This document shows positions 1 through 28,489 of a stretch of DNA of 36,392 nt, piece by piece. Every line of letters begins with the position of its first letter. Position 1 is the stretch's first letter. Source of the stretch: a virus; the IMG/VR virus record IMGVR_UViG_3300002307_000022, positions 108,585 to 144,976 of that record. One strand, 5' to 3'. The notes beneath the pieces are model-generated. The model saw only the letters and a program-made list of their open reading frames with translations. It had not been told where the DNA came from and ran no database searches. The position numbers and the translations under genes are program-made.

Positions 1-745
1 CCGTCTAAGCATCCAGATCTTAAAGCAGGTTGTAGAAGCAAAGACTCGCAAGCTATCAGCTCGCTGGACTTTTGAATCTGCACAGGATGCACAGGCACAA
101 CAGGGTATCGATATCGAAGCTGAAATCATGGCAGCACTTGCACAGGAAATCACTGCTGAAATCGATCAGGAAATCCTAACATCACTACGTAACTTAGCTG
201 GTACTCCAACTGAGACTTACGATCAGGCTGCTGTTTCAGGTACTGCTACATTCGTTGGTGACGAACACGCTGCTCTAGCTGTTCAGATCAACCGTGTTGC
301 TAACCTAATCGCTCAGCGCACACGTCGTGGTGCAGGTAACTATTGCGTAGTTACTCCGTTCGCTCTAACTATTCTACAGAGCGCAACAACTTCAGCATTT
401 GCTCGCACTACAGAAGGCACTTTCGAAGCTCCAACTAACACTAAGTTCGTTGGTACTCTAAACAGTGCAATGCGTGTTTATGTTGATTCCTATGCACAGG
501 ATAGCACTTCAATCCTAATTGGTTACAAGGGTTCAAGCGAGTCAGATGCACCAGCATTCTACTGCCCATACATTCCTCTAATGTCAAGCGGTGTCGTACT
601 TGATCCAGCTACTTTCGAGCCAGTCGTAAGCTTCATGACACGTTATGGTTATGTAGAGCTTTCAAATGCTGCATCATCACTAGGTAATGCTGCTGACTAC
701 CTCGGTCTAGTAGGTATCACAAACGGAAACGTAAAGTTCTCTTAA
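1..745 (+). CDS. Major capsid protein, T4 gp23-like (5'-truncated by the window edge)
   Basis: Frame is open from nt 2 (RLSIQILKQVVEAKTRKLSARWTFESAQDAQAQQGIDIEAEIM...). It carries gp23-family motifs AKTRKL.ARWT.E.AQD, EI..EID.EI, IA..TRRGAGN, GYKG.SE.DA..FYCPY.PL and F.P...FMTRYG. Confidence 0.95.
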   Translation, partial: RLSIQILKQVVEAKTRKLSARWTFESAQDAQAQQGIDIEAEIMAALAQEITAEIDQEILTSLRNLAGTPTETYDQAAVSGTATFVGDEHAALAVQINRVANLIAQRTRRGAGNYCVVTPFALTILQSATTSAFARTTEGTFEAPTNTKFVGTLNSAMRVYVDSYAQDSTSILIGYKGSSESDAPAFYCPYIPLMSSGVVLDPATFEPVVSFMTRYGYVELSNAASSLGNAADYLGLVGITNGNVKFS

Positions 746-12396: not shown

Positions 12397-12424
12397 TTCA
12401 AACACATAATCTAGGAGAATTTTG

Positions 12425-15400
12425 ATGACAACAGCCGCAAAATATGGCGCACAGGACTTAAACGGTAATCCAGTAAATTACCAGCAGCTAGTAAACCCAG
12501 CAAATACGGGTCCTAGCAACGTCATAGTAAACACTACCTTCGTTAATAGGACAGGTACTGCTAACAAAGCAAGATTAGCACTATCTTCAACCGCACTTGT
12601 TCCACAGACAGTGTCAAGCACACAAGGATTATACCCTATCACTGCTAACCAGACAAATAATGCTGCTAGTGTTGAAACACAGCAGATATTAACGATTGGT
12701 AGCACTAGTAGCGTAACAAACGCATTTACCACAGCGCCAATTACAGTAACAGCAACAACAGTAGGTACTAACCAGATAGTTTGCTCAAGCACAGTTACAC
12801 TCTCAGTAGGTCAACCAGTTGTATTTACATCACCAATTGGCGGGTTGCAGGCTAACATCAATTATTATGTACTAAACATAGTGAGCAACACAAACTTTAC
12901 AGTTTCAAACGTATGGAACGGTGCGATAATTTCCCTAAACGGCCAGACAACTAACGTGCTAATGTACCAGTCAACTGCTAACTTAGCAGTTGGTATGCCA
13001 ATACAGTTCCACGGTACACCATTTGGTAACGTAGTATATAATTACAATTATTATATCAACACTATCACATCGAACAATAGCTTTACTGTTTCAATAGTAG
13101 CGGGTAGCGGCACAGCTGTTACTCTAACAACTAATGCACTAGGAACTTTTGCACCATTTACTGCTGTTCCACTAACTGGTACTAGCTTTAATCCGACTAT
13201 AAACAATCCGGCAGCTCTTAACGTATCAAACGTAGTTTCAGCTACTTATAACGGTATACAGGGCCTAAGCATTGGATATGCTAATAGTTCAGGCAACATC
13301 CTTTCAACAGCTGCAATAAACATTAATGCTATCGTTGCACAAAACGTAGCTTCAACACCATATAACCCAGTGTTCATTGTATGTTCCTCAACACTTACAC
13401 TTACAACTGGTATGCCAATCGTATTCAGTGCTACTAGCGGTAGTATCACAGGCGGCGTTGTTTATTATGTTTCACAGATATTCAGTAGCATAGCATTTAA
13501 CATATCTGCTACCCCTGGCGGCCCAGTACTACCATTAAGCTCAACTACCCCAACTGGATTAACTGCACAGCAAGCAACTACTTTCTTACAAGTTGGTCAG
13601 CCTATTGTCTTTAACGGTAGTGGTACATACGGAGCAGGTGTTGCTAATCAAGCAGGTGTTGGTGGACAGGTATTTGGAAATCTAAATGTTAATACTCCTT
13701 ATTATGTATTAACTATTCCAAGCGCAACTACATTTACAGTAGCTACTACTCCAGGTGGGTCAGCAGTAACTTTATTCACTGATGGTATGAATGGTACTAT
13801 CATAACTGCTGGTAACTTTAAGATTGGTCAGCAATATGTTATCGTTTCATCTGGTAGTACTACATTCCCAGGTGCAGGTAATAATAACCAAGGAACTGTG
13901 TTCACTGCAACTGGTCCAGGTTCCGGTACAGGTACTGCGATGGTCTGTAGCAGTTATGTTTCAGGTAGCGGTCTTGTTGCCGGTGTAACTTATGCTATTG
14001 GTTGGTTAAACACAATTACTGCTGCTAACATCGATACTGCTGCCGCAACTGCAAAATCTGGTAGCAATGTCGTAGTCCAAGGTGTAAGCTATTCAGCTAT
14101 TGGTACATTCTCTTATGCTAACCCAACTGGTTCAGCAGCAGCAAATACCCAAGCAGTTAGCTATTTTGTATCAGCTACTACAACATCAAACGCAGGTGTA
14201 TTCATTCCGATCAATCCAATGATTACTACAAATGCTGCACACGTTTCAAATCCATTAACTATAGCAAGCTCAAGTGCAGTAACTAACGCATTTACTGTAG
14301 CAGCTATCGCAGTATCAGCAACAACAGCATCAACTGGATATATAACTTGTGCTAGCACAGCTACACTTGCTATCGGACAACCGGTTGTATTTGATACTTC
14401 ATTTTCTACTATCGTAGCAGGAACTGTTTATTATGTGCTAACTGTACAGTCTAGCACAACTTTCCAGATATCAGCTACACAGATTACTTCAACTATACCT
14501 AGCAACTCGCTATACCCATTAACTACTACAACTGGTCAGACAGTTAATATGTATCAAGCAACTACTAACCTACAGGTAAACGTACCAATGATATTTACTG
14601 GTACTGCTATCGGTGGTGTAACTGCTGGACAGGTATATTATGTACAAAACCTATTAACAACTACAGTAGGTGGAGCAGTTATACCAAATAGTTTCCAAAT
14701 ATCAACAATTTATGGTGGTCCTGCACTAACATTAACAACTGCTAGTGGATCAATGGTTGCAACTATTACACCGATTGTTCCAACTATCAACGTAAACGCA
14801 TCAACAGCAAGTGGATCTTTAACAGTCGGCGGTACATTAGGTACATATACTAACTATCTAACCACACAGTATGCCACTTGTTCGGCAACTGCTGGTGCTG
14901 CACCATACGAAATCACAGTTAATACAACTAGCTGGATGTCAGTGGGTCAACCAGTAGTATTCAGTTCAGTTAACACTGGTACTAACGTGTTTGCAAGTGC
15001 TTCTATCGGTAGTACAAATATAACTGCTGGTACTACTTACTATGTTGCAACTATTGATAGCTTAACAGCGTTCCAAGTGTCTGCTACATACGGCGGTGCT
15101 CCAGTTGCGTTAGGCTCAACTAGCCAGACTATGTATGTTTACCAGTCAACTGCTAACTTAAACGTAGGTCAACCTGTAGTATTTACAGGTGGTACTATCA
15201 CAGACTCTGCGCTAGCACTTAACACTACTTACTATGTTAACTCAGTATTGGGCCCTGCATACTTTACAGTTGCAAGCACTATATACGGTTCAAACCTAGC
15301 ACTAACAGGCGGTGGTACTAACATCAACAGCGTACAGATTGGTCCTCGTCCACTAATGACGATTTCAGCAACTGTAACATCAAGTGGTGTTACTATGATG

Positions 15401-18400
15401 ACATTCCCAGTAAGTGCTACACAGCAGTATACTAACTTAATTACTATTAACACTACATATCCACTATCAGTAGGTATGCCAGTTGTATTCAGTGCTGCTA
15501 CAGGACTTATGGCTGCTAACCAGCTGTTTTATGTAGCAAGTATAGTAAACGGTACGCAGTTTACTGTATCATCAACTAAGGGTGGTCCAGTGTATGTACA
15601 GAATACTACAACCGGTATTAGTGCTAACTTGTATCAGTCTACTACTAACTTGTATCTAAACCAACCACTAGTATTTTTCCCAACAGCAGCAAGTGCTACA
15701 ATTTCTAATGCTTCAAGTATTCCGACTGGTCTGACTAACATGGTATATGGTTATACAGTATACATTAACACTTTTAACAGTTTAATTTCGTTTACTATAT
15801 CACTAACACCAAACAGCTCATTACCAGGTGCTACAGCTACTACTTCAATTAGCTTGTCAAGTGCTGGTACTACTAACGCATTTGCGTTCTTACCAATGAC
15901 TAATAACGTAGCTTCAAACTTTGCTTATCAGTCTGCTCCTGTAGCAGTTACAGCAACTAGTGCCACAGCACCATACTTAATCACTTGTGCTAGCACAGCT
16001 GGTTTTGCTCTTGGACAACCTGTACAGTTTGATATAGCGATCGGTGGATTAGCTGTTAACACAACTTATTATGTATTAACTACTCCAAGTTCAACTACAT
16101 TTAACGTATCTACTACCCCGTTTGGTGGTGTGGTTGTGTTAACATCAGCAACTGGTAGTACCGGTAACGTATATCAGTCAACTGCTGGGTTAACAGTAGG
16201 TTCAGCTATACAGTTTACTACTGCAAGTTCATATCTTGGTTTGCCAACTGACACATATAAGACAGTAATTGGCGCAGCTTATAATTCATTATCAGCAGGG
16301 TTAACATTCTATATACAGAGTATACCAAGCTTTAACACAGTTATATTAACTCTAATAAACGCAAGCCCAGCATCTTTTGGTGCTGCAACAGGATACAGTT
16401 CTGGTGCTTCCATCGGTGGCTACGGTGGAATTGGTATGTTACCACTAGGCGTTGGTGCATTTACTGGTGCTACTTTATATAATGGTGTTAGCGGATTAAC
16501 AGTGACTGGAGCAGCAACTCCAGGTGCACAAAGTGGAGCTATGTATCTCAATACAATTAGCCCAACACCTCCTCTAGTAATTGGATCAACTACTGCAACA
16601 AGCAACTATTTCACTACACAGACTGTCAACGTTACTGCTGTAACTTCCGTAGGTAACTTAATTACCTGCGCTACTACACAGTATTTTTATCCAGGTATGT
16701 CTGTAGTGTTTAGCTCTGGTCTAGGAACTGGTATAGTATCGGGTACTGTTTACTACATATTAACCATTCCAAGCGCAACTACATTTACAGTATCTTCTAC
16801 ATTTAATGGTACAGTACAGACACAATCAACTACTACAGGTAATATAACTGTACAGCAGACTGCATTGTTCTTACAAGTAAATCAACCAGTTGTTTTCTAC
16901 GGAAAAATAGCAGCTAACCCAATCGTAGGTGTTAGCTTAGTGAGTGTTAGTTCGGGCGGTGTGTTAACTTTAGGTACCGCAGTTACATTAGCTGCTGGTT
17001 CTACTATTACTACAAGCTCATCATTAACTGTTGGTGCAACTGGTTTAATAGCTGGTCAGACATACTATGTCACAACAAGCGTTACAGCAAGCACTACAGT
17101 AACATTAAGTCTCACACTAGGCGGTAGTGCTATTTCTATAACTGGCGGTTCACCGACTGGTACATTAACAGTATCAATTATTGGATTAGTAAATGCACTA
17201 CCGGGTGTAACTTATTATGTAAATGAAGTTATTAATACAACATCATTTACGGTTAGCCAGTATATAAACGGATCTATATTTGCTCTACTTTCTGCAACTG
17301 CCACGCAGTTTAATGCGGTAACCGGTCCTTACAGGCAGTATAATATAAGTGCAACTCTTGCTGCGACTACTCCAAGCTTTACATTAGCAGCATTTGGATT
17401 GATTGGTACACAGTCAACTAATGGTACAAACTTAGCAATCGTGAATAATACTTTTGCTATGTATCCAGGAATGCCAATATCAATAGGCGGTACTTCGGGT
17501 GTATTAGTAGCAAATACATTATATTATGTGGTTAGTATATATGATCAGCATCGTGTTGTAGTTTCGATAGCACCTCCTAGTCAGTATGCTTCACCAAATA
17601 GTGTAGGTTATATTCCAACTACAAACAGCATCATTTACCAAACACCAAACGGTACTGCTTTACCGGTAACTACACAGATAGGAACTCAACCACTATATCA
17701 ATCAGCAGCTAAATTACAGCTTAACCAACCAGTTATGTTCTATGGTAACTTGGGTGGTATGACTGTAGCTTCTAACGCATTAGTAATTGGTAGGACTTAC
17801 ACTGTGGTATCAGTAGGTGACGCTACCTTTACTTCATATGGCGCGGCAGCAAATACTGTTGGTACAGTGTTTATAGCTACAACAACAGGCGGTGGTACTA
17901 CTGGTGTAGCATATAGCAGCTTCTTAAGCACTAGTGCGGTGTTGCTTCCAAATACTGTATATTATGTAAGTTCAGTTTCGGGCGCAGGTATTGGATCAAA
18001 CCAAGTAGCAGTTTCAGCAACACCAACGTATGCAGGAACTAACATTACTTCATATATCACAAGCGTTAGCATCGCTTCACCAGGTGTGTTTAGCACTTCA
18101 AACTTACCGTTTACACTAGTAGCTGGTCAGGCTATTACGATAACTGGTACAGCGGCTGCAACATTAGCTACAGGTAGTACTACTCCAAATCGTACATACT
18201 ATGTAACTAATATCAGTGGTTCTACTTTCTCACTAGAAACTTTTCCAGGAAACGGCGGTATACAGAATACAACTTCAACTAGCGTAAGTGGTTGGACGTT
18301 TGTACTAAATGGTATCAATCCAAACATTGCTGTTAACTTATCATCAGCAGGTCCAGCAGCACTCGGATTAGCAGCACAGGTAGCATCTACAGCACAAGCA

Positions 18401-20935
18401 ATGACAATGGTTCCGTTAATGAGCAATGTTACTGCACCGAACGTATTCCAAGCACAACCACTACCAATCGTAGCAACAAGCGGTAGCAGTGCTTATAGCT
18501 TTACAACTGGTGTAATGACTGTAGCTTATGCTACTTCAATTGGTTCTAACTTAATAACTTGCTTATCAACAGCAGGATTAACTGTTGGTATGCCAGTATC
18601 GTTTAGTGCTACCCTCGGTAACATTACAAGTGCAACTACTTACTACGTATTAACTGTTAATAGTGCAACTACATTTACTGTCGCAACTACATGGGGCGGC
18701 CAGGTATTAGTATTAACTAATGCTTATAACTACTCATATGTAAACGCATCAACTGCTAACTTAACAGCAGGACAGCCGATGGTGTTTACAGGATCAGTAT
18801 TTGGTGGTATCATAGCATATAACACCTATTACGTAGCAACTGTACTAAGCACAACTACATTTACTCTTGCTAACAGCTTGGCTGCTGCGATTGGTATCGG
18901 TGGTTCTCCAACTCTAGCACAGAATACTGCTGCAACAGGTTATATGTTAGCTTATGCAGCAACTGGTAGTACTACAACAACTGGTGCCGTTATTGGTGGT
19001 CAGAACTTAGGTGCAATGGGTACAGGTAACTATGGACTAGTTATAGGTCAACAGTATATGATCACTTCAGTAGGTTCTACAACTTGGACTACTTATGGTG
19101 CAGCTACAAGCACTGTAGGTACTATCTTTACTGCAACTGCACAGGGTGCAGCATACGGTGGTAGTGGTACATACAATATCGGTAGCACATCAGGCGCAGC
19201 AACTGGTACTGCTATCGAACTAGTAGGACTAATGGGTAATATGAATGCAAGCATTGGAGCAAATGCTCCAGCTATGTTTGCAGGTCCAACTATTACTGTA
19301 ACCGGAATCAACGGTACACAGCTTTATACACCAGGTAACACAAACTATCTAAGTGTTGGACAGGCTGTAGTGTTCACTGGTTATACTTTTATAAGTGGCA
19401 TCACAGCTGGATTAACTTACTACATACAGAGCGTTGTAAGCAGCAATGTGTTTACACTAAGCGCAACTAGTAACGGCGCTGCGTTAACATTTACTACTGG
19501 CAGCAACATACTAAGTATGCAGATCTTAAACAGCATCGGTACTAGCTTAATACCATATCAGACTTACTATACACAGAGTGTTCCAAACCCAATAGCTTGG
19601 AGCATAAGCAGCACTAACGTACAGGCTCCGGCTATTACCGTAAGCGCCACAGCATCTGGTACAGCTATAACTACTGGTGCATACACAGTAACAGCAGTTT
19701 CAGCAACTGGTAACTTGATTACTACTACAAGCACAGCTGGTCTAATAGTTGGCCAACCTATAGTATTCCCAACTAGTGTACTAGGTAACATTGTAGCAAC
19801 AACTATCTATTATGTGCAGACTGTTTACAGTGCTACACAGTTTAGCATAGCTACTTCTGCAACTGCCCAGGCATTTAATCCAGGAACTGCAACAGGTAGC
19901 GTAACTATGCAGATAGCGACTGCTAACTTAGCAGTAGGACAGCAGGTTAACTTCTCAGGCAACGTAGGTGCAAGCGGTATAGTAGTAGGAACTAACTATT
20001 ACATACAGAGCCTAAATGCTAACGGTTATCAGTTTACTGTAGCAAGCTCAGTAGGTGGTAGTGCGCTATCATGGACTGCTGCTACACTAACTAACGGACT
20101 AACTGCTAGCTTTGTAATTAATGCAACAGCACTTACAACGTCACAGACTGCAACTGTAAGTTATCAGAGCAACATATTAACACTTGCAACTGGTAGCAGC
20201 ACACAGTATTTGCTACCTAACCAACCAGTAGTGTTTACAAATACTAGTGGTGCTAACTGGAGCGGATTAAACACTCTACTCACAGTCGCAAGTGCTACTG
20301 TTCCGGCAGTAAGCTCAGCATATGTAGTTACTACAGTTACAACTAGTACCAACGTTATAACAATTAACTATGTAACTAGTAATACTGGAACTAAAACTGC
20401 TACTACGCTAATAACTGGTGCTTTCCCTGCGCTAACACTTAATCAACCGGTTGTGTTTATAGGAACAAACGTTGATAACTTAGTTGTTAACCAGACTTAC
20501 TATATACAGAGCATAACAGCTGCTACTGGTATTACAGTATCAACAACACCGGGTGGTGCAGCAGTATCTATAGGTAGTACTACTAGCCCAACTGCTGGTA
20601 CAATGCTAATGATTCCAGCATACTATGTGAAAGCAGTTACCGGTAGTAACACACTACAAGTATCAGCTACTCCAGGCGGCGCAGCAGTGTATATTCCAAC
20701 GTTCTATGCACAGGGTAATAACGTAGTACAGATGACTCCGATGCCACTAAACACAGACTTCATCTACGGTGACGTAGCTGTAGCTGCTCAGAGCCAAGTA
20801 ACTGCTAACGGTATATTAGTACCGCCAAACACTTACTTGTATGCTTCCGCAGGATTGACTGTATTTGGTTCCGGTACAGGTGGTTCAGCAACTGGTATGA
20901 ACGCAATAGCAATTGGTGTTCAGGATCTAGTATAA
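12425..20935 (+). CDS. Giant repeat protein (~2836 aa), putative adhesin or fibre appendage: a small cap domain split by a ~2,700-aa repeat insert
   Basis: SD AGGAGA (12413-12418) favours ATG 12425 over TTG 12422. About 26 copies of ST..L.VGQPVVF...G....[YF]Y[VI]..I.S.T.FTVS.T.GG; the two termini resemble the 103/109-aa paralogs. Confidence 0.8.
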   Translation: MTTAAKYGAQDLNGNPVNYQQLVNPANTGPSNVIVNTTFVNRTGTANKARLALSSTALVPQTVSSTQGLYPITANQTNNAASVETQQILTIGSTSSVTNAFTTAPITVTATTVGTNQIVCSSTVTLSVGQPVVFTSPIGGLQANINYYVLNIVSNTNFTVSNVWNGAIISLNGQTTNVLMYQSTANLAVGMPIQFHGTPFGNVVYNYNYYINTITSNNSFTVSIVAGSGTAVTLTTNALGTFAPFTAVPLTGTSFNPTINNPAALNVSNVVSATYNGIQGLSIGYANSSGNILSTAAININAIVAQNVASTPYNPVFIVCSSTLTLTTGMPIVFSATSGSITGGVVYYVSQIFSSIAFNISATPGGPVLPLSSTTPTGLTAQQATTFLQVGQPIVFNGSGTYGAGVANQAGVGGQVFGNLNVNTPYYVLTIPSATTFTVATTPGGSAVTLFTDGMNGTIITAGNFKIGQQYVIVSSGSTTFPGAGNNNQGTVFTATGPGSGTGTAMVCSSYVSGSGLVAGVTYAIGWLNTITAANIDTAAATAKSGSNVVVQGVSYSAIGTFSYANPTGSAAANTQAVSYFVSATTTSNAGVFIPINPMITTNAAHVSNPLTIASSSAVTNAFTVAAIAVSATTASTGYITCASTATLAIGQPVVFDTSFSTIVAGTVYYVLTVQSSTTFQISATQITSTIPSNSLYPLTTTTGQTVNMYQATTNLQVNVPMIFTGTAIGGVTAGQVYYVQNLLTTTVGGAVIPNSFQISTIYGGPALTLTTASGSMVATITPIVPTINVNASTASGSLTVGGTLGTYTNYLTTQYATCSATAGAAPYEITVNTTSWMSVGQPVVFSSVNTGTNVFASASIGSTNITAGTTYYVATIDSLTAFQVSATYGGAPVALGSTSQTMYVYQSTANLNVGQPVVFTGGTITDSALALNTTYYVNSVLGPAYFTVASTIYGSNLALTGGGTNINSVQIGPRPLMTISATVTSSGVTMMTFPVSATQQYTNLITINTTYPLSVGMPVVFSAATGLMAANQLFYVASIVNGTQFTVSSTKGGPVYVQNTTTGISANLYQSTTNLYLNQPLVFFPTAASATISNASSIPTGLTNMVYGYTVYINTFNSLISFTISLTPNSSLPGATATTSISLSSAGTTNAFAFLPMTNNVASNFAYQSAPVAVTATSATAPYLITCASTAGFALGQPVQFDIAIGGLAVNTTYYVLTTPSSTTFNVSTTPFGGVVVLTSATGSTGNVYQSTAGLTVGSAIQFTTASSYLGLPTDTYKTVIGAAYNSLSAGLTFYIQSIPSFNTVILTLINASPASFGAATGYSSGASIGGYGGIGMLPLGVGAFTGATLYNGVSGLTVTGAATPGAQSGAMYLNTISPTPPLVIGSTTATSNYFTTQTVNVTAVTSVGNLITCATTQYFYPGMSVVFSSGLGTGIVSGTVYYILTIPSATTFTVSSTFNGTVQTQSTTTGNITVQQTALFLQVNQPVVFYGKIAANPIVGVSLVSVSSGGVLTLGTAVTLAAGSTITTSSSLTVGATGLIAGQTYYVTTSVTASTTVTLSLTLGGSAISITGGSPTGTLTVSIIGLVNALPGVTYYVNEVINTTSFTVSQYINGSIFALLSATATQFNAVTGPYRQYNISATLAATTPSFTLAAFGLIGTQSTNGTNLAIVNNTFAMYPGMPISIGGTSGVLVANTLYYVVSIYDQHRVVVSIAPPSQYASPNSVGYIPTTNSIIYQTPNGTALPVTTQIGTQPLYQSAAKLQLNQPVMFYGNLGGMTVASNALVIGRTYTVVSVGDATFTSYGAAANTVGTVFIATTTGGGTTGVAYSSFLSTSAVLLPNTVYYVSSVSGAGIGSNQVAVSATPTYAGTNITSYITSVSIASPGVFSTSNLPFTLVAGQAITITGTAAATLATGSTTPNRTYYVTNISGSTFSLETFPGNGGIQNTTSTSVSGWTFVLNGINPNIAVNLSSAGPAALGLAAQVASTAQAMTMVPLMSNVTAPNVFQAQPLPIVATSGSSAYSFTTGVMTVAYATSIGSNLITCLSTAGLTVGMPVSFSATLGNITSATTYYVLTVNSATTFTVATTWGGQVLVLTNAYNYSYVNASTANLTAGQPMVFTGSVFGGIIAYNTYYVATVLSTTTFTLANSLAAAIGIGGSPTLAQNTAATGYMLAYAATGSTTTTGAVIGGQNLGAMGTGNYGLVIGQQYMITSVGSTTWTTYGAATSTVGTIFTATAQGAAYGGSGTYNIGSTSGAATGTAIELVGLMGNMNASIGANAPAMFAGPTITVTGINGTQLYTPGNTNYLSVGQAVVFTGYTFISGITAGLTYYIQSVVSSNVFTLSATSNGAALTFTTGSNILSMQILNSIGTSLIPYQTYYTQSVPNPIAWSISSTNVQAPAITVSATASGTAITTGAYTVTAVSATGNLITTTSTAGLIVGQPIVFPTSVLGNIVATTIYYVQTVYSATQFSIATSATAQAFNPGTATGSVTMQIATANLAVGQQVNFSGNVGASGIVVGTNYYIQSLNANGYQFTVASSVGGSALSWTAATLTNGLTASFVINATALTTSQTATVSYQSNILTLATGSSTQYLLPNQPVVFTNTSGANWSGLNTLLTVASATVPAVSSAYVVTTVTTSTNVITINYVTSNTGTKTATTLITGAFPALTLNQPVVFIGTNVDNLVVNQTYYIQSITAATGITVSTTPGGAAVSIGSTTSPTAGTMLMIPAYYVKAVTGSNTLQVSATPGGAAVYIPTFYAQGNNVVQMTPMPLNTDFIYGDVAVAAQSQVTANGILVPPNTYLYASAGLTVFGSGTGGSATGMNAIAIGVQDLV

Positions 20936-22048: not shown

Positions 22049-25000
22049 ATGGCTAAGAAGCAGATATTAACTTATAAATTCGTTCCAGGAAATAGTACAC
22101 CAACGACAAGTTTATATCCAAACGCAAGATTTTTAATAAATGCAAATAAAAAATTTATACAAGAAGAAGCTATTGCATATGTTCAAAATAATGTAGCGAA
22201 TAATATTCAACCATATACTAGTTATGTGTATGATGCTAATCTATTACGAACAGAGATAAGCAATACACTAGACGGGTTTACTAATGATCTAAGACACGGT
22301 GCTAATACTCTAACAGTTTTCAATGCAAATCAATATTGGAAATATGGTGTAGAACTAGTAGTCGCAAGTCCGTTAGCAGCAACCTACTCCTACATCTCAA
22401 ATATGATAAGAAATTACATTCTTACTAATACTGATTTCAATAATCTACAAACTACGGTATCTCAAGTAATCAATAACGCATATGTTTCTGAAACTGCTTC
22501 TTACAGTGCATTTAGTGCCCTGTCGTTGATTATTACTAATTCAATATTGTCGGGAACATCAACTATTCCTGCCATTATAAACGATAGAGGGTATATTAAA
22601 TTATCAGGAAATTATCATCAAAACGATATGTTAATAATAACAAATACTACTCGAAACACCATACTCTATAACTTTGCAGACCCGTCTAGTCCTACAGAAA
22701 TTACATATACAGATACTTACGATAGTGATTTTCCAGGGGCATTATACGGAAATGACAAAGTATCAACAGTTTGGTTAGATTATGATACTAGTAATATGTT
22801 GTTATCAGATGATATACAGGTATTTGTTGAAGTTGAAAATCTACCTGTAAGATTAAATCCTATAGCAACTGACGCTATGGAACGTATGAAAGTTGGTATA
22901 CCGCAGTCAATGCTTGACGCTGACTTTGAATACGGATTGCAGCCAACTAAATGGCAAACTATCGGATTAATGAGGAATTATCCTTCAATATACGAGATTC
23001 CAAACAGTGATCAAACAGTTATTAATGTTACTACAGATGCTTCGTCGGGAAATACAGGAAACGCAGGTGCTAGTTTAATAACTGTTACGACACAGAATTC
23101 CCACGGATTTTCGGTTAACCAACCATTTACTATTAAAGCATTAGCAGTATCAGTTAGCGGATTTAATCGTGCAGAAGGAAGTTTCTTAGTTAATTCTATC
23201 CCATCTGCTAACACATTTACCTACTATGCAAAATCAAAAGTAGGTACTAACAGCGGAGATATTATAAGCACAAACTACACACAGTTAAGAACTGGTGCTT
23301 TTTACACAGGAGCAGCAGTTGGAACTCCACAGTTTTCGGTTTACTCAAACGGTAGTAGCGGAACGATTACTACTAGTTTAATAACTCCAACAGGATCAAA
23401 TACTATAGCATTTACAGGAACTCCTCCGTTAGTTGGAGCACCTCTATCGGGTACAGGTATTGCCACTGGAACACAGATAACTTCTGTTTCGGGTTCTGGT
23501 AGCACAGTAGCAACAACTAGTCTATCTGTTACTGCTAATATCGGAGATAGTTCTATTACTGTAAATAGTGCTACTGGAATAGGAACAGGGTTAGCTATAA
23601 ACAGAGGTGACGGCCGCGCAGCTATAGTAACAAACGTAGTTGGAAATACACTTACTCTTAGCACAGCACTAACAAGCACTATCCTCGGTAGTAGCCAGTC
23701 TTTCCCTTCTCAAACACCTACTATTATAAGTGGGTCAGGTGTTGGTGCAGTTTTTGATATAGCAAGAGTATCAGATACTGTATATAGTGCATCTATTGTT
23801 TCTGCAGGAACAGGTTACAAAACTAACGATGTATTAAAGGTACTTGGTACTAATTTAGGAGGATCAAGTCCTGCTAATGATGCCACTATTACTGTATTAA
23901 CTGCTAGCAACAGAAATTCAGTTGCTTCGTTAGACCTTAACACAATTAACCCTGGTCAAGGATACTATTATAATACATATAATACAGTAGCATACACTGG
24001 AAGTGGTTCAGGATTAACTGTTCAGGTAACAGATCTTATAGTTACATTTAACGACGGAAACGGAAATGTTCAATACGGAATTAAAAATCTTAGTATTGTT
24101 AATCCTGGTTCAGGATATGCAATTGGTGATTATATCCAAATTGGTATCGATACCGATTTTCATGGTGGTCAGGTTACTATCGCAACGGTATCGGCGGGCG
24201 GATTGATACAATCTGTATCTGTAGCTGGAACTCCTATTTCGATTGGTCTCGTATCATTTATTAGTGCATTTACTATTAACACTCCGACTACTAGCCAAAT
24301 TGCTAGCGGTAATACAGGTATAACATATAGTGCTATACCTACTATACAGATTTCTTTCCAACCAGCTCACGGGTTTATTCCGGGAGACACTATTACAGTA
24401 CAAATTACAAGTAGTGATACTAATGCACAGCTTGCAGCTGGTGCATTCTTTGTTGAACAAGTACCGAGTCCCACCACTATCTTGTATACTGCTAGAGCAG
24501 CAGGAACGATAGCCAATACGCTTACCGGGTTTGTCTACGGAAGACCAGATAGCTATTTTATACATAGACCGTTTGATGGTGGTGTACAATTAGGAACCGG
24601 CGGACCAGCACACGGTGCTACTGCTATACGTATGAGTAAAAAATATATACGTTATCAATCAGGTAAGGGCGTTATGTATAACACAGGTGCATTATTTGCA
24701 CCAAGCTATAACATAGCTAGTATCACATCTACCGGAACAGCAATAGGCAGTATTATAACAGTAACAATGGACGACGTAGATCACGGTTGCCAAGTTGGTG
24801 GATCAATCGATCTTAGCGGAGTGAATACAAGCGGGTATAACGGAAATTATATAGTTTTTAGTATTATTACTGAACGTGTATTAACTATTATTGCAAAACA
24901 AGTATTGGGAAACACATCAGCATTGATCGGAAATCCTTGTGTATTAAGTGTTAGAAATTGGCATGGAGCAACAGTAAGGGCTGGGATATTCGATGACCAA

Positions 25001-28000
25001 AACGGCATGTTTTGGCAGTATGATGGAATAAGATTGTCAGTAGTAAAGCGTTCAAGCACTTTCCAAATTGCAGGATCTATTGCGCTAGCAACAAATTCAA
25101 ATCAAGTTTTTGGAACAGGCACTAGATTCACACAACAATTAGCAACTGGGGATCGCATAGTTATAAGAGGCATGACACACGTAGTTAGCTTGATTACTAG
25201 CGACACTAACATGAGCATCACTCCTGATTATAGAGGAACAGTTGATCTTACATCAGCAAAAGTCGCTAAAACAAATGATCTAATCGTGCCGCAAGAGTAT
25301 TTTAATAGAGACACACTTAACGGAAAAGGTGATAGTGGATACAATGTAGATATTACAAAGATGCAGATGATTGGAATACAGCACACATGGTATGGTGCGG
25401 GATTTATAGATTTTATGCTACGTGGATCTGATGGAAATTACGTTTTTGCACACAGATTCCGTAATTCTAATTATAACACTGAAGCATATATGCGTTCAGG
25501 TAACCAACCAGTAAGGTATGAAGTTATTAACGAAGGTGCTAAAGATAAATTATCAGCAGCAATTACTGCATCTGATACTGTATTACCTTTGACAAACACC
25601 TATTTCTTTCCACCTGCGGGAACAGTATGCATTGACTCTGAATTAATATCCTACACCGCTAATAATGGAACAGCATTAGTTGGCTGCACTAGAGGAACTA
25701 CACTAACACAATTTGCTGCAGGATCTAATAGAACATTCTCAGGAAGCGTTGCATCATCGCACGCATTTAATAGCGGTGTTATATTAGTATCAAATACTAT
25801 CACTCCTATCATTAGTCACTGGGGATCAGCATACATGATCGACGGACAGTTTGATAGTGATCGCGGTTACATATTCAACTATGCTGCTACAGGAGTTAAT
25901 GCTAGTACAAGTACCAATACTGCATTCCTAATACGTCTAGCACCTAGCGTAAGTAATGCACAGACTGGAGATTTAGGTGTACGTGAACTGTTAAATCGTG
26001 CGCAGATGTTGCTTTCAAACATATCTATCACTAGTGATTCAGTAAGTGGCGGCGGCGCAATAGTTGTACAGGGAATACTAAATCCTATCAATTATCCATC
26101 AGATCCAACACTAATTACTTGGACTGGGTTAAATTCACTAGGTGCTGGTGGACAGCCAAGCTTTGCTCAGATAGCATCAGGAGGTTCTGTTAGCTGGGGC
26201 GGTGGAGCAAGTACTGCTAATGCTACTGTGCAAGGTGCATTTACTAGCAGTATAACTGCTGTTAGCTTTGCTTCAGCTACTACTAACTTAACCGCAGTAT
26301 CATTTAGTCCTGTACAGCAAACAGTAAGTGCAGTTAGCTTTAATATTTTTAGCACTGGATCAGCTACTAGCTTTGGTATACAACAATCAGTAACAGCACC
26401 TGCTGTTACTCTAATACAAAATAGCACATATCAATTTGCTTTCCAAAACACAAGAAATGATTTCCTATTTCCGCAATCAGTATACGCTGCATTTACAACT
26501 CCGATCGCAGTAGGTGATGTTATATCTGTACCTACATATGTTACAGGCGCACAGACTATAGCAAGCATAACACCAAATTATATCACTATAAATTCAGTAA
26601 CATATGTGCGTATAGTAATGAGTGCAAATGCTAATGCGTCTAGCGCAACAAATACAGCAGTTTCTAGCATATTAATTACTAATCCAACTGGAGCAATATA
26701 TAACAGTGCGTTAAGCACAGGTAGGAATGATTTTCTAATACCTCAAACTACGTTTGCAGCATTTAGTCCTGCTGTAGTAGTAGGAGATAGATTATTTGCG
26801 ACAACTTATATTACTGCTGGGCAGACTATAAATTCTATAAATCAAAACTATGTCACATTAGCTGGTGTAGCGTATTGTCAGATAGTTATGAGTGCGATTG
26901 CTAACTCAACTAGCACAGCTAATACTTTAAATAGTGTCGGAGCTCAAAATATTACTGTGACCTTTACTAATGCATCGAGCTTCACTTATAACAATGCATT
27001 TAGCTCATCGAGATCAGATTTCTTAATAACTAACACTGCATATGCTGCACTTACTACTACATTAGCAGTGGGTGACATTGTTAGCGCCAGCTCGTATGTA
27101 GGCGGCGGACAGACTATATCAAGCATAACCTCAAGCTATGTTACATTTAATAGTATACCTTATACTAGGATTGTAATGAGTGCAAATGCTACTAGCACTA
27201 GTCCAGCAGCTGCTACTACAAACGCACAGAATATATCAACAACGATTACTAACGCATTAAGTAACACATATAATACAGCAGTAAGCCAATCTAGGACAGA
27301 TTTCCTAATAACGCAAACACAATATGCAGGAATATCTATCGCAGTTACTGACGCTTTAACAAATGCTACATATATTAATACTGCACATTCTATATCAAGT
27401 ATAACTCCAAATTTTGTTACTATTTCTGGAACAGTATATGCTAGGATTGTAATGAGTTCTCCTGCAAATACTACATCAACCGGCGGAACGGGTAATAATA
27501 TTACTATCGTAGCAACTTCCTCATCAACAGCTACATATGGATCAGCATTAAACAGTACTAGGTCTGATTTCTTAATTACTGACGCTCAATATGCTACGAG
27601 TGGTATATCAACTAGTGATATTTTATCATTAAATACCTTTATCACTGGTTCACAAACTATATCAACAATAACCCAATCATTCGTAACAATTAATTCGGTT
27701 AGTTATACTAGGATAGTTATGAGTGCTGTTGCAAACTCAACCAGCACTAGTGGTGCAGGACAGAATCAAACTATTACTGTAACTGCTGCTGGTTCTGCAG
27801 CTACTTACGTTAGCACTAACTATCTATTCTTTACTTCAAGTAGTTGGTTAACATCAAGTGCTACGCTTGGTACTAAGTTAGCAGTTTCTTATACACAGTT
27901 TCCAGCAGGAACATCAGTAGCAGCAGTTAGTTCTAGGACATTTAACAGTGCTATTAGCACCGTTACAAACGCAGCAAGTTCAGGTGGAGGATCTACTGTA

Positions 28001-28489
28001 ACTTATACTTTAACAGGTTCAAGTATATATCCTGTAGGGTCAACAGTTACAGTTAGTGGAATAACAGGCGGTACTGCTATGAATGGTACTTTTGTAGTAA
28101 CATCGAGCGTAGCCGGAACACTAATCGTAACTAGTACTGGATCAGGAACACCTAGTAGCTATTCCGGCGCATCTGTGGTAGGTGCTACTGTTTATCGTGC
28201 AACATTTACACAGACAGCAAACACAACTATCTCAGCTGGAGCAACACCTACATTCCAGTTTGGTGCTGCATATGCACTACCTGGAGAACAGGTATTCTCG
28301 TTCGTTAATAACCCGGGAAATACTGATCAGCTAGATCTAAGTGGATTGAAAGAAATGACTTCAACTGCTATTGGCGGAAGAGGTACATTCCCTAATGGTC
28401 CGGACGTTTTAGCTATCAATGTTTATAAAGTTAGTGGATCAGCAACACCAGTTAACGTAATTCTACGTTGGTCAGAAGCACAGGCTTAA
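22049..28489 (+). CDS. Large multidomain virion protein (2146 aa), putative fibre or adhesin
   Basis: N-terminal MAKK....Y.F.P / LIITNTTRN.ILYNF module, HG[FC]..G small beta domains, G.GY repeats, a lectin-like middle region (WYGAGFIDF...HRF), and five ~90-95-aa repeats near the C-terminus. Confidence 0.75.
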   Translation: MAKKQILTYKFVPGNSTPTTSLYPNARFLINANKKFIQEEAIAYVQNNVANNIQPYTSYVYDANLLRTEISNTLDGFTNDLRHGANTLTVFNANQYWKYGVELVVASPLAATYSYISNMIRNYILTNTDFNNLQTTVSQVINNAYVSETASYSAFSALSLIITNSILSGTSTIPAIINDRGYIKLSGNYHQNDMLIITNTTRNTILYNFADPSSPTEITYTDTYDSDFPGALYGNDKVSTVWLDYDTSNMLLSDDIQVFVEVENLPVRLNPIATDAMERMKVGIPQSMLDADFEYGLQPTKWQTIGLMRNYPSIYEIPNSDQTVINVTTDASSGNTGNAGASLITVTTQNSHGFSVNQPFTIKALAVSVSGFNRAEGSFLVNSIPSANTFTYYAKSKVGTNSGDIISTNYTQLRTGAFYTGAAVGTPQFSVYSNGSSGTITTSLITPTGSNTIAFTGTPPLVGAPLSGTGIATGTQITSVSGSGSTVATTSLSVTANIGDSSITVNSATGIGTGLAINRGDGRAAIVTNVVGNTLTLSTALTSTILGSSQSFPSQTPTIISGSGVGAVFDIARVSDTVYSASIVSAGTGYKTNDVLKVLGTNLGGSSPANDATITVLTASNRNSVASLDLNTINPGQGYYYNTYNTVAYTGSGSGLTVQVTDLIVTFNDGNGNVQYGIKNLSIVNPGSGYAIGDYIQIGIDTDFHGGQVTIATVSAGGLIQSVSVAGTPISIGLVSFISAFTINTPTTSQIASGNTGITYSAIPTIQISFQPAHGFIPGDTITVQITSSDTNAQLAAGAFFVEQVPSPTTILYTARAAGTIANTLTGFVYGRPDSYFIHRPFDGGVQLGTGGPAHGATAIRMSKKYIRYQSGKGVMYNTGALFAPSYNIASITSTGTAIGSIITVTMDDVDHGCQVGGSIDLSGVNTSGYNGNYIVFSIITERVLTIIAKQVLGNTSALIGNPCVLSVRNWHGATVRAGIFDDQNGMFWQYDGIRLSVVKRSSTFQIAGSIALATNSNQVFGTGTRFTQQLATGDRIVIRGMTHVVSLITSDTNMSITPDYRGTVDLTSAKVAKTNDLIVPQEYFNRDTLNGKGDSGYNVDITKMQMIGIQHTWYGAGFIDFMLRGSDGNYVFAHRFRNSNYNTEAYMRSGNQPVRYEVINEGAKDKLSAAITASDTVLPLTNTYFFPPAGTVCIDSELISYTANNGTALVGCTRGTTLTQFAAGSNRTFSGSVASSHAFNSGVILVSNTITPIISHWGSAYMIDGQFDSDRGYIFNYAATGVNASTSTNTAFLIRLAPSVSNAQTGDLGVRELLNRAQMLLSNISITSDSVSGGGAIVVQGILNPINYPSDPTLITWTGLNSLGAGGQPSFAQIASGGSVSWGGGASTANATVQGAFTSSITAVSFASATTNLTAVSFSPVQQTVSAVSFNIFSTGSATSFGIQQSVTAPAVTLIQNSTYQFAFQNTRNDFLFPQSVYAAFTTPIAVGDVISVPTYVTGAQTIASITPNYITINSVTYVRIVMSANANASSATNTAVSSILITNPTGAIYNSALSTGRNDFLIPQTTFAAFSPAVVVGDRLFATTYITAGQTINSINQNYVTLAGVAYCQIVMSAIANSTSTANTLNSVGAQNITVTFTNASSFTYNNAFSSSRSDFLITNTAYAALTTTLAVGDIVSASSYVGGGQTISSITSSYVTFNSIPYTRIVMSANATSTSPAAATTNAQNISTTITNALSNTYNTAVSQSRTDFLITQTQYAGISIAVTDALTNATYINTAHSISSITPNFVTISGTVYARIVMSSPANTTSTGGTGNNITIVATSSSTATYGSALNSTRSDFLITDAQYATSGISTSDILSLNTFITGSQTISTITQSFVTINSVSYTRIVMSAVANSTSTSGAGQNQTITVTAAGSAATYVSTNYLFFTSSSWLTSSATLGTKLAVSYTQFPAGTSVAAVSSRTFNSAISTVTNAASSGGGSTVTYTLTGSSIYPVGSTVTVSGITGGTAMNGTFVVTSSVAGTLIVTSTGSGTPSSYSGASVVGATVYRATFTQTANTTISAGATPTFQFGAAYALPGEQVFSFVNNPGNTDQLDLSGLKEMTSTAIGGRGTFPNGPDVLAINVYKVSGSATPVNVILRWSEAQA
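26420..27790 (+). repeat. Five ~90-95-aa protein repeats (Y..A....R.DFL ... QTI.SI...YVT.....Y.RIVMS..AN.TS)
   Basis: R.DFL anchors at about 26453, 26723, 27011, 27293 and 27560. Confidence 0.9.

What the first reader, a model, noticed from the sequence alone, without database searches (positions are those of the whole stretch)
12683..20700. Russian-doll nesting: repeat domains inserted inside other copies of the same repeat
Seen in sequence: the ~26 repeats (by-eye count of [YF]Y[VI] cores) are not simply tandem. One pattern has a domain's first strands (LTIGSTSSVTNAFT), then a complete copy (PITVTATTVGTNQIVCSSTVTLSVGQPVVF...NVLMYQ, ~12734-12970), and only then the rest of the outer copy (STANLAVGMPIQF...YYI). 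This 'two starts, two bodies' pattern with a (Y/Q)Q-[SA]T..L junction recurs several times. A second pattern has a whole copy between an outer QPVVF and its YYV (e.g. ~16880-17220 and ~20220-20630). Inference: a branched, tree-like chain built by recursive domain insertion at two or more permissive loops.
Basis: partly seen in the sequence, partly recalled or inferred. Interest (0 to 1): 0.8.

Follow-up and report, generated by a model that had tools for sequence, protein, structure and literature searches.

The report
Phage giant protein of nested beta-barrels
A 2,836-residue virion-type protein of an uncultured T4-like phage is built from about 26 copies of one small beta-barrel, and most copies sit inside loops of other copies rather than simply following them, which is an unusual way to build a repeat protein.

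Summary
Gene 12425-20935 (+) encodes a nearly uncharged protein of about 26 copies of an ~80-aa beta-barrel. The barrel matches the E1-FCCH / EF-Tu-domain-2 fold (VIA Z 7.2-8.7), a fold already known as a phage decoration and insertion domain.

Each barrel has three parts in order: a start hairpin (S), the QPVVF strand (N) and a YYV body (C). Ten 160-aa super-repeats read S S N C N C, not S N C S N C. This means a complete barrel lies between the start hairpin and the body of a second barrel.

AlphaFold2 folds such a unit at pLDDT 92 and pTM 0.85. Structure alignments find one contiguous barrel (model residues 25-105). Other single-barrel alignments run from residues 4-7 to residue 172, which fits a second, discontinuous barrel made of 5-24 plus 106-172. 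Weak covariation agrees.

A second insertion site, the QPVVF-YYV loop, holds a whole barrel three times (aa 1497-1590, 2291-2370, 2609-2726) and an unrelated ~55-aa module once. One of these inserts is present in three close relatives and cleanly absent in two. Relatives reach three nesting levels.

I could not inspect model coordinates or PAE maps. The function is inferred only; my best guess is a multivalent virion appendage. This is a new variant of a known kind.

The parts
12425..20935 (+). Gene for the giant repeat protein (2,836 aa from the ATG; a TTG lies one codon upstream at 12422)
   Evidence: The 100%-identical database protein P0002 starts at the ATG. No Pfam or PHROG family hit.
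12689..12733 (+). Super-repeat 1: start hairpin of the OUTER barrel (aa 90-104, LTIGSTSSVTNAFTT)
   Evidence: S-element hit. Strands 11-16 and 23-25 of the AF2 model at pLDDT 95-97. Single-barrel alignments reach back to model residues 4-7.
12734..12970 (+). Super-repeat 1: complete INNER barrel (aa 105-183; S, N and C contiguous)
   Evidence: HMM 83.5 bits. Model residues 25-105 align to E1 FCCH 4p22_B with Z 7.2, rmsd 2.4 A, 73 aa.
12971..13165 (+). Super-repeat 1: body of the OUTER barrel (aa 184-248; N and C, with no start hairpin of its own)
   Evidence: HMM 74.6 bits. Element order is N C directly after the inner C. pLDDT 91-96.
13280..13795 (+). Super-repeat 2 (aa ~287-458); the outer barrel has a ~17-aa longer QPVVF-YYV loop
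   Evidence: spliced 67.8 bits
14252..14758 (+). Super-repeat 3 (aa 611-779), order S S N C N C
14819..15325 (+). Super-repeat 4 (aa ~800-968)
15374..15853 (+). Super-repeat 5 (aa ~985-1144)
15869..16396 (+). Super-repeat 6 (aa ~1150-1325); the outer barrel has an enlarged QPVVF-YYV loop
16571..17311 (+). Super-repeat 7 (aa 1384-1630): its outer barrel carries two inserted barrels, one after the start hairpin and one in the QPVVF-YYV loop
16841..16909 (+). Nested case 1: N-half of the host barrel (aa 1474-1496, ..LQVNQPVVFYG)
   Evidence: HMM positions 2-29 only. Spliced to its C-half it gives a 47.8-bit full-length match.
16910..17191 (+). Nested case 1: inserted divergent barrel (aa 1497-1590)
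   Evidence: HMM 4-64. blastp E ~1e-11 to barrels in other proteins. Present in P0001, P0003 and P0005; absent in P0004 and P0006.
17192..17311 (+). Nested case 1: C-half of the host barrel (aa 1591-1630, ..GVTYYVNEV..FTVSQ..)
   Evidence: HMM positions 31-66, E 4e-9
17333..18052 (+). Super-repeat 8 (aa ~1638-1877). The QPVVF-YYV loop of its outer barrel holds an unrelated ~55-aa module (aa 1778-1835, nt 17753-17926, motif G..Y.V.S.G.T.F...GA..N..GT.F.AT).
   Evidence: Spliced host gives 24.5 bits full-length.
18458..18949 (+). Super-repeat 9 (aa 2013-2176), order S S N C N C
19253..19663 (+). Nested case 2 ('nested A'): host N-half aa 2278-2290, inserted complete barrel aa 2291-2370 (nt 19292-19531), host C-half aa 2371-2414
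   Evidence: The inner barrel is model 22-105, pLDDT 70-85, and aligns to 4p22_B with Z 8.7. The host halves are poorly modelled (pLDDT ~25).
19628..20095 (+). Super-repeat 10 (aa 2403-2558). It is present only in the window's clade, lying between nested A and nested B.
20153..20707 (+). Nested case 3 ('nested B'): host start plus N-half aa 2578-2608, insert with one barrel aa 2609-2726 (nt 20246-20599), host C-half aa 2727-2762
   Evidence: Order N [N C] C. Conserved in all family members. Spliced host gives 39.3 bits. Lambda gpJ 490-567 aligns over model 309..514 with 67 aa at rmsd 3.0 A.

Best explanation
The gene encodes a giant, almost uncharged structural protein of a T4-like myovirus. 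Its ~26 repeats are FCCH / EF-Tu-domain-2-like six-stranded beta-barrels of about 80 aa. Each barrel is made of a start hairpin S (beta1-beta2), strand N (..L.vGQPVVF.G, beta3) and body C (G.l..gtYYV..i.S.ttFtvS.t.gG...L.., beta4-beta7).

The barrels are joined mainly by insertion rather than end to end. The basic 160-aa unit is a two-barrel nest, S(outer) - [S N C](inner) - N C(outer). In it a complete barrel sits in the beta2-beta3 connection of another barrel. This unit occurs ten times.

A second permissive site is the beta3-beta4 loop between QPVVF and YYV. It holds a further complete barrel three times and an unrelated ~55-aa module once.

The N and C termini of this barrel lie next to each other; the fold is already known as an insertion domain in E1 enzymes, the P22 coat protein and endosialidases. 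The polypeptide therefore runs through the outer barrels and carries the inner barrels as side branches.

Shown here: the element grammar, the fold, the insert presence/absence polymorphism and a high-confidence two-barrel model. Inferred: that the host half-segments pack into one barrel in every case, and that the protein is a bead-and-branch virion appendage. I think it most likely gives multivalent, low-affinity binding to host surface polysaccharide, by analogy with the sugar-binding barrel of endosialidases (from my own knowledge, not tested).
For: Context: major head protein, tail fibre (CBM5/12), virion structural proteins, sheath-related and baseplate genes surround it.

Repeat map.

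Fold:
- VIA-align gives 4p22_B (E1 FCCH) at Z 8.7, rmsd 2.2 A, 75 aa on model 1, and Z 7.2, rmsd 2.4 A, 73 aa on model 2.
- Other matches are phi92 endosialidase barrel 4hiz_A (Z 6.6, 24% id), phage FCWL1 9jlf_E (Z 6.9-8.6) and EF-Tu domain-2 barrels.
- A relative has a sub-threshold Pfam E1_FCCH hit (P0106, 25.3 bits; cut-off 29.5).
- The nearest named ESM-Atlas cluster is viral E1_FCCH (0.91).

Pattern 1:
- AF2 of aa 80-251 with 42 natural super-repeats gives pLDDT 92 and pTM 0.85. The strands of S(outer) plus body(outer) mirror those of S(inner) plus body(inner).
- Outer-barrel alignments span model 4..172, 5..172 and 7..172 with 70-73 residues aligned to single ~90-aa barrels: 3agp_A (Z 6.2), 5i4q_C (Z 5.9) and 7c3a_A (Z 4.8).
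- S(outer) resembles S(inner).
- Pairs carry two S, singles carry none or one.
- mfDCA on 187 non-redundant super-repeats finds S(outer)-body(outer) couplings 15 times against 8.6 expected in the top 100, and S(outer)-inner 6 times against 8.5.
- The S(inner)-by-inner coupling pattern correlates with S(outer)-by-outer (r 0.125; null 0.001 +/- 0.034) but not with S(outer)-by-inner (0.005).

Pattern 2:
- Split HMM hits.
- Splice test.
- An ~83-aa insert sits exactly between NQPVVFYG and G.TYYV in P0001, P0003 and P0005 and is absent in P0004 and P0006.
- Nested A and B are conserved across the family at 33-90% identity.
- Relatives show 22 N[k units]C cases, 12 of them with a whole two-barrel nest inside a third barrel.
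Against: - Model coordinates, contact maps and PAE were not available, so discontinuous barrels are inferred from first/last aligned residues, DSSP and confidence.
- Some VIA rows (27..140) show that a strand of the neighbouring barrel can be pulled into an alignment, so ranges alone are not proof.
- Model 1 (10-row alignment) is poor: mean pLDDT 52. The host halves of nested A are at pLDDT ~25, and nested B is only 55-76.
- The DCA signal is weak (Meff 159) and the sequences are related paralogues.
- All Z-scores are below or near 8, the range that the tool calls 'a common arrangement'.
- No experimental or proteomic evidence that the protein is in the virion. No evidence on oligomeric state or ligand.
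Confidence: 0.72

Rival explanations
1. Plain tandem array. All barrels are contiguous, and the extra 'start' segments and orphan half-copies are linkers or decayed remnants of repeats that do not fold together. The 160-aa period would simply be a larger repeat unit made of linker, domain and domain.
For: - The 66-position HMM aligns the last strand of the inner copy (..NVLMYQ) with the strand preceding QPVVF in odd copies. A reading in which every copy is contiguous from that strand onward is therefore possible at sequence level.
- The host halves of nested A are unmodelled (pLDDT ~25).
Against: - The N-extension is a confident beta-hairpin (pLDDT 95-97) in a pTM 0.85 two-barrel model.
- It resembles the inner barrel's own start hairpin.
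- A full barrel as matched to solved structures needs about 80 aa including that hairpin (model 25-105), and the second body has none of its own.
- Single-barrel alignments stretch from residues 4-7 to 172.
- Orphan halves are conserved family-wide and splice into full-length matches.
- The contiguous form of the same barrel exists in P0004 and P0006.
Confidence: 0.13
2. Crossed (strand-swapped) double barrel. The first hairpin completes the first body and the second hairpin completes the second body, or strands are shared in one continuous sheet. The two barrels would then be intertwined rather than one inserted in the other.
For: - A long continuous strand (model 96-104) leads from the inner barrel into the outer one.
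- Several alignments of the inner barrel extend to residue 140, which suggests tightly packed or shared sheets.
- DCA shows some S(outer)-inner and S(inner)-outer couplings.
Against: - Nearly all inner-barrel alignments begin at residues 25-28, i.e. with the second hairpin, and end at 105.
- DCA top couplings favour S(inner)-inner and S(outer)-outer. The homologous-pattern correlation is seen only for that pairing.
Confidence: 0.1
3. Prediction artefact. The nested fold is imposed by AlphaFold2 from an alignment of paralogous repeats, and the real protein is a trimeric or otherwise intertwined beta-fibre in which these segments pair between chains.
For: - Many phage fibres are trimers whose monomer predictions mislead (general knowledge).
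- The protein is extremely poor in charged residues (36 of 2,837), which is unusual for soluble globular domains.
- Oligomeric state was not tested.
Against: - The fold found is a common monomeric phage decoration domain.
- Independent lines that do not use AF2 (element grammar, indel polymorphism, splice test, DCA) point the same way.
Confidence: 0.05

Closest known systems
E1 FCCH domain (Pfam PF16190) as a phage decoration domain, e.g. on siphovirus tail-tube proteins (PMC13576161; PDB 4p22, 2v31, 9n71, 9jlf)
   Same: [quoted passage not shown] It is used on the outside of phage particles. In E1 enzymes it is itself an inserted domain, so its termini are adjacent.
   Different: No Pfam hit for this protein. 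Known cases have one barrel fused or inserted into a different fold. Here about 26 copies are inserted into one another.
Endosialidase beta-barrel domain (phage K1F / phi92; PDB 1v0e, 4hiz) and P22 coat-protein I-domain (2m5s)
   Same: Similar barrels: 4hiz_A Z 6.6, rmsd 2.2 A, 24% identity over 70 aa; 2m5s Z 5.1. Both are classic insertion domains of phage structural proteins. The endosialidase barrel binds sugar (own knowledge).
   Different: Their hosts are unrelated folds (beta-propeller, HK97 fold) and each holds a single insertion. No self-nesting and no repeat array.
Nested multi-domain adhesins such as the pneumococcal pilus adhesin RrgA (domains inserted within domains; recalled from memory, not checked here)
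   Same: A 'Russian-doll' chain topology, with surface-exposed adhesive function.
   Different: Those nest different folds once each. They are not a periodic repeat in which one fold is inserted into copies of itself at two defined loops.
Uncharacterised giant proteins of uncultured freshwater/marine Caudovirales (BFVD A0A6J7WDX3, A0A6J7WHK8; database proteins P0003-P0173)
   Same: True homologues with the same barrel and super-repeat. BFVD Foldseek E 2.6e-11 at 31% id. 2,654 cluster representatives match the repeat profile at E<=1e-3, in proteins of up to ~7,000 aa.
   Different: They are unannotated. The nested grammar has not, to my knowledge and in four literature searches, been described for them.

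Membership tests
E1_FCCH-like beta-barrel (fold level) | [quoted passage not shown] | tested here: met
   VIA-align: 4p22_B Z 8.7, rmsd 2.2 A, 75 aa and Z 7.2, rmsd 2.4 A, 73 aa on the pLDDT-92 model. Also 2v31 and 9mc4. Z is near the tool's caution line of 8, so this supports a shared fold, not proven homology.
Pfam PF16190 E1_FCCH (sequence family) | Score at or above the Pfam gathering threshold (29.5 bits) | tested here: not met
   No hit for P0001 at E<=0.01, nor for 68 single copies at E<=1. A relative, P0106, reaches 25.3 bits, E 1.6e-5. The ESM-Atlas nearest named cluster is viral E1_FCCH at 0.91.
Domain-insertion (nested) architecture | The host domain is discontinuous in sequence, and its two segments together equal one complete copy | tested here: met
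   Split HMM hits. Spliced hosts give single full-length matches of 47.8, 39.3, 20.2 and 24.5 bits. The contiguous natural form exists in P0004 and P0006.
Domain-insertion (nested) architecture | The two host segments pack into one folded domain in 3D | tested here: inconclusive
   Supported indirectly by pLDDT 92 / pTM 0.85, single-barrel alignments spanning 4..172 and 309..514, and weak DCA. Coordinates and PAE could not be inspected.
Domain-insertion (nested) architecture | Recursion: an insert that itself contains an insert | tested here: met
   In relatives a whole two-barrel nest lies in the QPVVF-YYV loop of a third barrel: L004 aa ~1125-1331 and ~1775-1985, and 12 cases family-wide. 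In the window itself depth is two, with one barrel (aa 1384-1630) carrying two inserts.
Phage tail fibre / virion structural protein | Encoded in the structural module and homologous to proteins shown to be in virions | tested here: inconclusive
   The neighbours hit tail-fibre, virion-structural, sheath and baseplate PHROGs. The protein itself matches no PHROG and no record in the phage collection.

The most novel reading that the evidence does not exclude
The whole 2,836-aa protein may be one recursive nest. The conserved N-terminal ~75 aa and C-terminal ~65 aa would close into a single anchoring domain, as another first-stage note proposes. The ~2,700 aa between them would be a tree of self-inserted barrels, up to three or more levels deep in relatives, giving a brush-like, branched monomeric virion appendage. 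Self-insertion of a barrel with adjacent termini would then be a general, so far undescribed, way in which phages grow giant proteins; 2,654 clusters carry the repeat.
Probability: 0.3. Interest if true: 0.78.

Novelty: new variant of a known kind. Interest (0 to 1): 0.62.

Why it matters
Repeat proteins are normally beads on a string. Here one small barrel, already known as an insertion domain, is inserted again and again into copies of itself at two defined loops, and the resulting two-barrel nest has itself become the unit of duplication.

- This gives a natural test case for how nested domains fold, since the inner domain must fold without blocking the outer one.
- It also bears on how giant phage proteins grow, and on how repeat-annotation software, which assumes contiguous units, miscounts such families.
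- The family is large (thousands of clusters in uncultured phages) and unannotated, so a correct domain grammar would improve annotation of many viral 'dark' proteins.

Tried and rejected
- Database searches for P0001 found nothing useful. Pfam and PHROGs gave no family. Pfam on 68 single copies gave only scattered chance hits.
- A first 47-row alignment for the nested region aa 1375-1650 (A2) was rejected. MAFFT aligned canonical copies chimerically, pairing the host N-half with the insert C-half, which would have biased the fold. That region was therefore not predicted.
- AF2 of the C-terminal 572 aa with 10 orthologues gave a poor model (pLDDT 52). I used it only for its better parts.
- Foldseek against the PDB found no match at E<=0.001 for the two-barrel model.
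- Tandem Repeats Finder found no DNA-level array, and DNA repeats are only 60-85% alike, so there is no recent duplication. The inserted barrel aa 1497-1590 has no close paralogue in the same protein, so its source copy could not be named.
Loci were obtained with the search for related loci instead.
- Four literature searches found no description of self-nested barrel repeats. Absence from that library is not proof of novelty.
Full report
**Context.** The window is part of the structural module of a T4-like myovirus known only from metagenomes. The flanking ORFs match the following:
- major head protein
- a tail-fibre protein with five CBM5/12 modules
- virion structural proteins
- a sheath-related protein
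- a homing endonuclease
- a baseplate-wedge/fibre connector

The 2,146-aa neighbour is 39-45% identical to virion structural proteins of Synechococcus phages S-CAM1 and S-CAM3. The target ORF (12422/12425-20935, +; P0001) has no Pfam or PHROG family and no match in the phage record collection. It has full-length relatives in metagenomes at 29-100% identity (P0002-P0029). It is T/S/A/G/V-rich, with only 36 charged residues in 2,837.

**Observation.** A 66-position HMM from 14 obvious copies maps ten abutting pairs of repeats and several split matches.

I built separate HMMs for the start hairpin (S, ~16 aa), the QPVVF strand (N, ~15 aa) and the YYV body (C, ~45 aa), and kept only hits above the best score seen in 20 shuffles of the protein. 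The order of elements is:
- S S N C N C at aa 90-242, 611-779 and 2013-2176
- the same with one or both S sub-threshold at the other seven pairs, where the two starts are still visible by eye, e.g. TLTISNTTTSTNVFTT / SVAVTATTVSTNIITT in relatives
- N [..C] C at aa 1483-1628
- N C C at aa 2307-2415
- N [N C] C at aa 2593-2758

The first start scores a mean of 8.1 bits against an HMM of the second start, versus 1.1 +/- 4.8 for shuffles. Across 173 family proteins, the first unit of an abutting pair has two S upstream in 70 of 131 cases. Isolated units have none or one in 321 of 333 cases (family-only figures). No S lies between the two bodies, because the inner body abuts the outer N at the [YQ]Q-[SA]T..L junction.

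**Fold.** AF2 of aa 80-251, using an alignment of 42 natural super-repeats from the window and seven related loci (A6), gave mean pLDDT 92 and pTM 0.85.

VIA-align against 48,161 PDB representatives matches model residues 25-105 (second start plus first body) to these structures:

| Target | Z | rmsd | Aligned |
|---|---|---|---|
| E1 FCCH domain, 4p22_B | 7.2 | 2.4 A | 73 aa |
| Phage FCWL1, 9jlf_E | 6.9 | 2.4 A | 73 aa |
| Tail-tube decoration domain, 9n71_B | 6.8 | 2.8 A | 71 aa |
| phi92 endosialidase barrel, 4hiz_A (24% id) | 6.6 | 2.2 A | 70 aa |
| Many EF-Tu domain-2 barrels | about 5-6 | | |

The inner copy of nested A in the other model gave the same list, with 4p22_B at Z 8.7. A relative has a sub-threshold Pfam E1_FCCH hit, and the nearest named ESM-Atlas cluster is viral E1_FCCH. 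FCCH-like barrels are a described external decoration of siphovirus tail tubes (PMC13576161). A complete barrel therefore needs about 80 aa including a start hairpin. The second body of each pair has none of its own.

**Pattern 1 (barrel inserted after the start hairpin).**
- In the model, the extra N-terminal segment forms strands 11-16 and 23-25 at pLDDT 95-97. The strand series 11-16, 23-25 | 114-118, 131-138, 141-145, 167-171 mirrors 28-33, 40-42 | 53-56, 69-74, 79-83, 96-104.
- Several single ~90-aa barrels align with 70-73 residues over model ranges 4..172, 5..172 or 7..172: 3agp_A (Z 6.2), 5i4q_C (Z 5.9) and 7c3a_A (Z 4.8). Residues 106-172 are only 67 residues, so part of those alignments must come from the first hairpin.
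- As a check independent of AF2, I collected 187 non-redundant super-repeats (Meff 159) from all family proteins and ran mean-field DCA. Among the top 100 couplings, outer-start to outer-body pairs are enriched (15 against 8.6 expected), while outer-start to inner-barrel pairs are not (6 against 8.5). Inner-to-outer body pairs are depleted (17 against 32.9).
- The coupling pattern of inner start by inner body correlates with outer start by outer body (r 0.125; shifted-matrix null 0.001 +/- 0.034; 0.1% of nulls reach it). It does not correlate with outer start by inner body (0.005).

The DCA signal is weak but points the same way.

**Pattern 2 (barrel in the QPVVF-YYV loop).** There are three cases in the window: aa 1474-1630, 2278-2414 and 2578-2762.
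- Removing the insert in silico turns two partial matches into one full-length HMM match of 47.8, 20.2 and 39.3 bits respectively.
- Nature has done the same experiment. P0001, P0003 and P0005 carry an ~83-aa insert exactly between NQPVVFYG and G.TYYV, whereas P0004 and P0006 have the uninterrupted barrel.
- The insert is a bona fide barrel with its own start hairpin (blastp E ~1e-11 to copies elsewhere).
- Nested A and nested B are conserved in every family member examined, at 33-90% identity.
- In the low-quality C-terminal model (pLDDT 52 overall; nested B 55-76), lambda gpJ residues 490-567 align once to the contiguous inner barrel and once, with 67 residues at 3.0 A, across model 309..514. 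That second range covers the two host segments of nested B.
- The same loop holds a non-barrel ~55-aa module at aa 1778-1835 and is simply longer in three other copies.
- In relatives a whole two-barrel nest sits in this loop of a third barrel, giving three levels (L004; 12 of 22 detected cases).

**Evolution.** The 160-aa nest is itself the duplication unit. The window's clade has one extra nest (aa ~2399-2566) between nested A and B relative to other members, and in L004 nests follow each other with a 160-aa period. DNA-level similarity between copies is only 60-85% and TRF finds nothing, so the array is old. The repeat profile finds 2,654 cluster representatives at E<=1e-3, in proteins of up to ~7,000 aa. 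BFVD hits are uncharacterised proteins of uncultured Caudovirales.

**Limits.**
- I could not read model coordinates or PAE, and both AF2 jobs are used.
- An alignment for aa 1375-1650 was discarded because MAFFT built chimeric columns.
- Function, oligomeric state and virion location are inferred from context only.

**Verdict.** The fold and the phenomenon of domain insertion are known. Systematic self-insertion as the repeat principle appears undescribed in the literature I could search. I rate it a new variant of a known kind.

Noticed in passing
window 12425-12650 and 20740-20935: The N-terminal ~75 aa and C-terminal ~65 aa (..TDFI..D....GILVPPNTYLYAS...AIGVQDLV) are the most conserved parts of the family. 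Another first-stage note proposes that they form one domain split by the repeat region. The C-terminal tail alone was unmodelled (pLDDT <35).
   Followed up: partly
window 13830-13990, 17753-17926, 19080-19230: There are three copies of a ~45-aa motif (h.hG..Y.h.S.G.T.F...GA.....GT.F.AT..G.G.G). It is unrelated to the barrel and has no Pfam hit. One copy sits inside the QPVVF-YYV loop of a barrel.
   Followed up: partly
window 12425-20935: The protein has only 36 D/E/K/R residues in 2,837 (1.3%). T+S+A+G+V make up 59%.
   Followed up: yes
window 26252-27790 (gene 22049-28489): The neighbouring 2,146-aa virion protein shows five short ..(A/T)VSF motifs in a row, followed by five ~95-aa repeats (R.DFL...RIVMS).
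   Followed up: partly
window 12770-12790 and equivalent positions: There is a single conserved Cys in the second strand of the inner start hairpin (..NLITC.ST..) in most pairs. Only 8 Cys occur in the whole protein.
   Followed up: no
L007 (Ga0208257_1000001, 352,510-bp contig): A family member (2,499 aa) lies on a 352-kb metagenomic contig, much larger than typical T4-like cyanophage genomes. It could be a jumbo phage or a misassembly.
   Followed up: no
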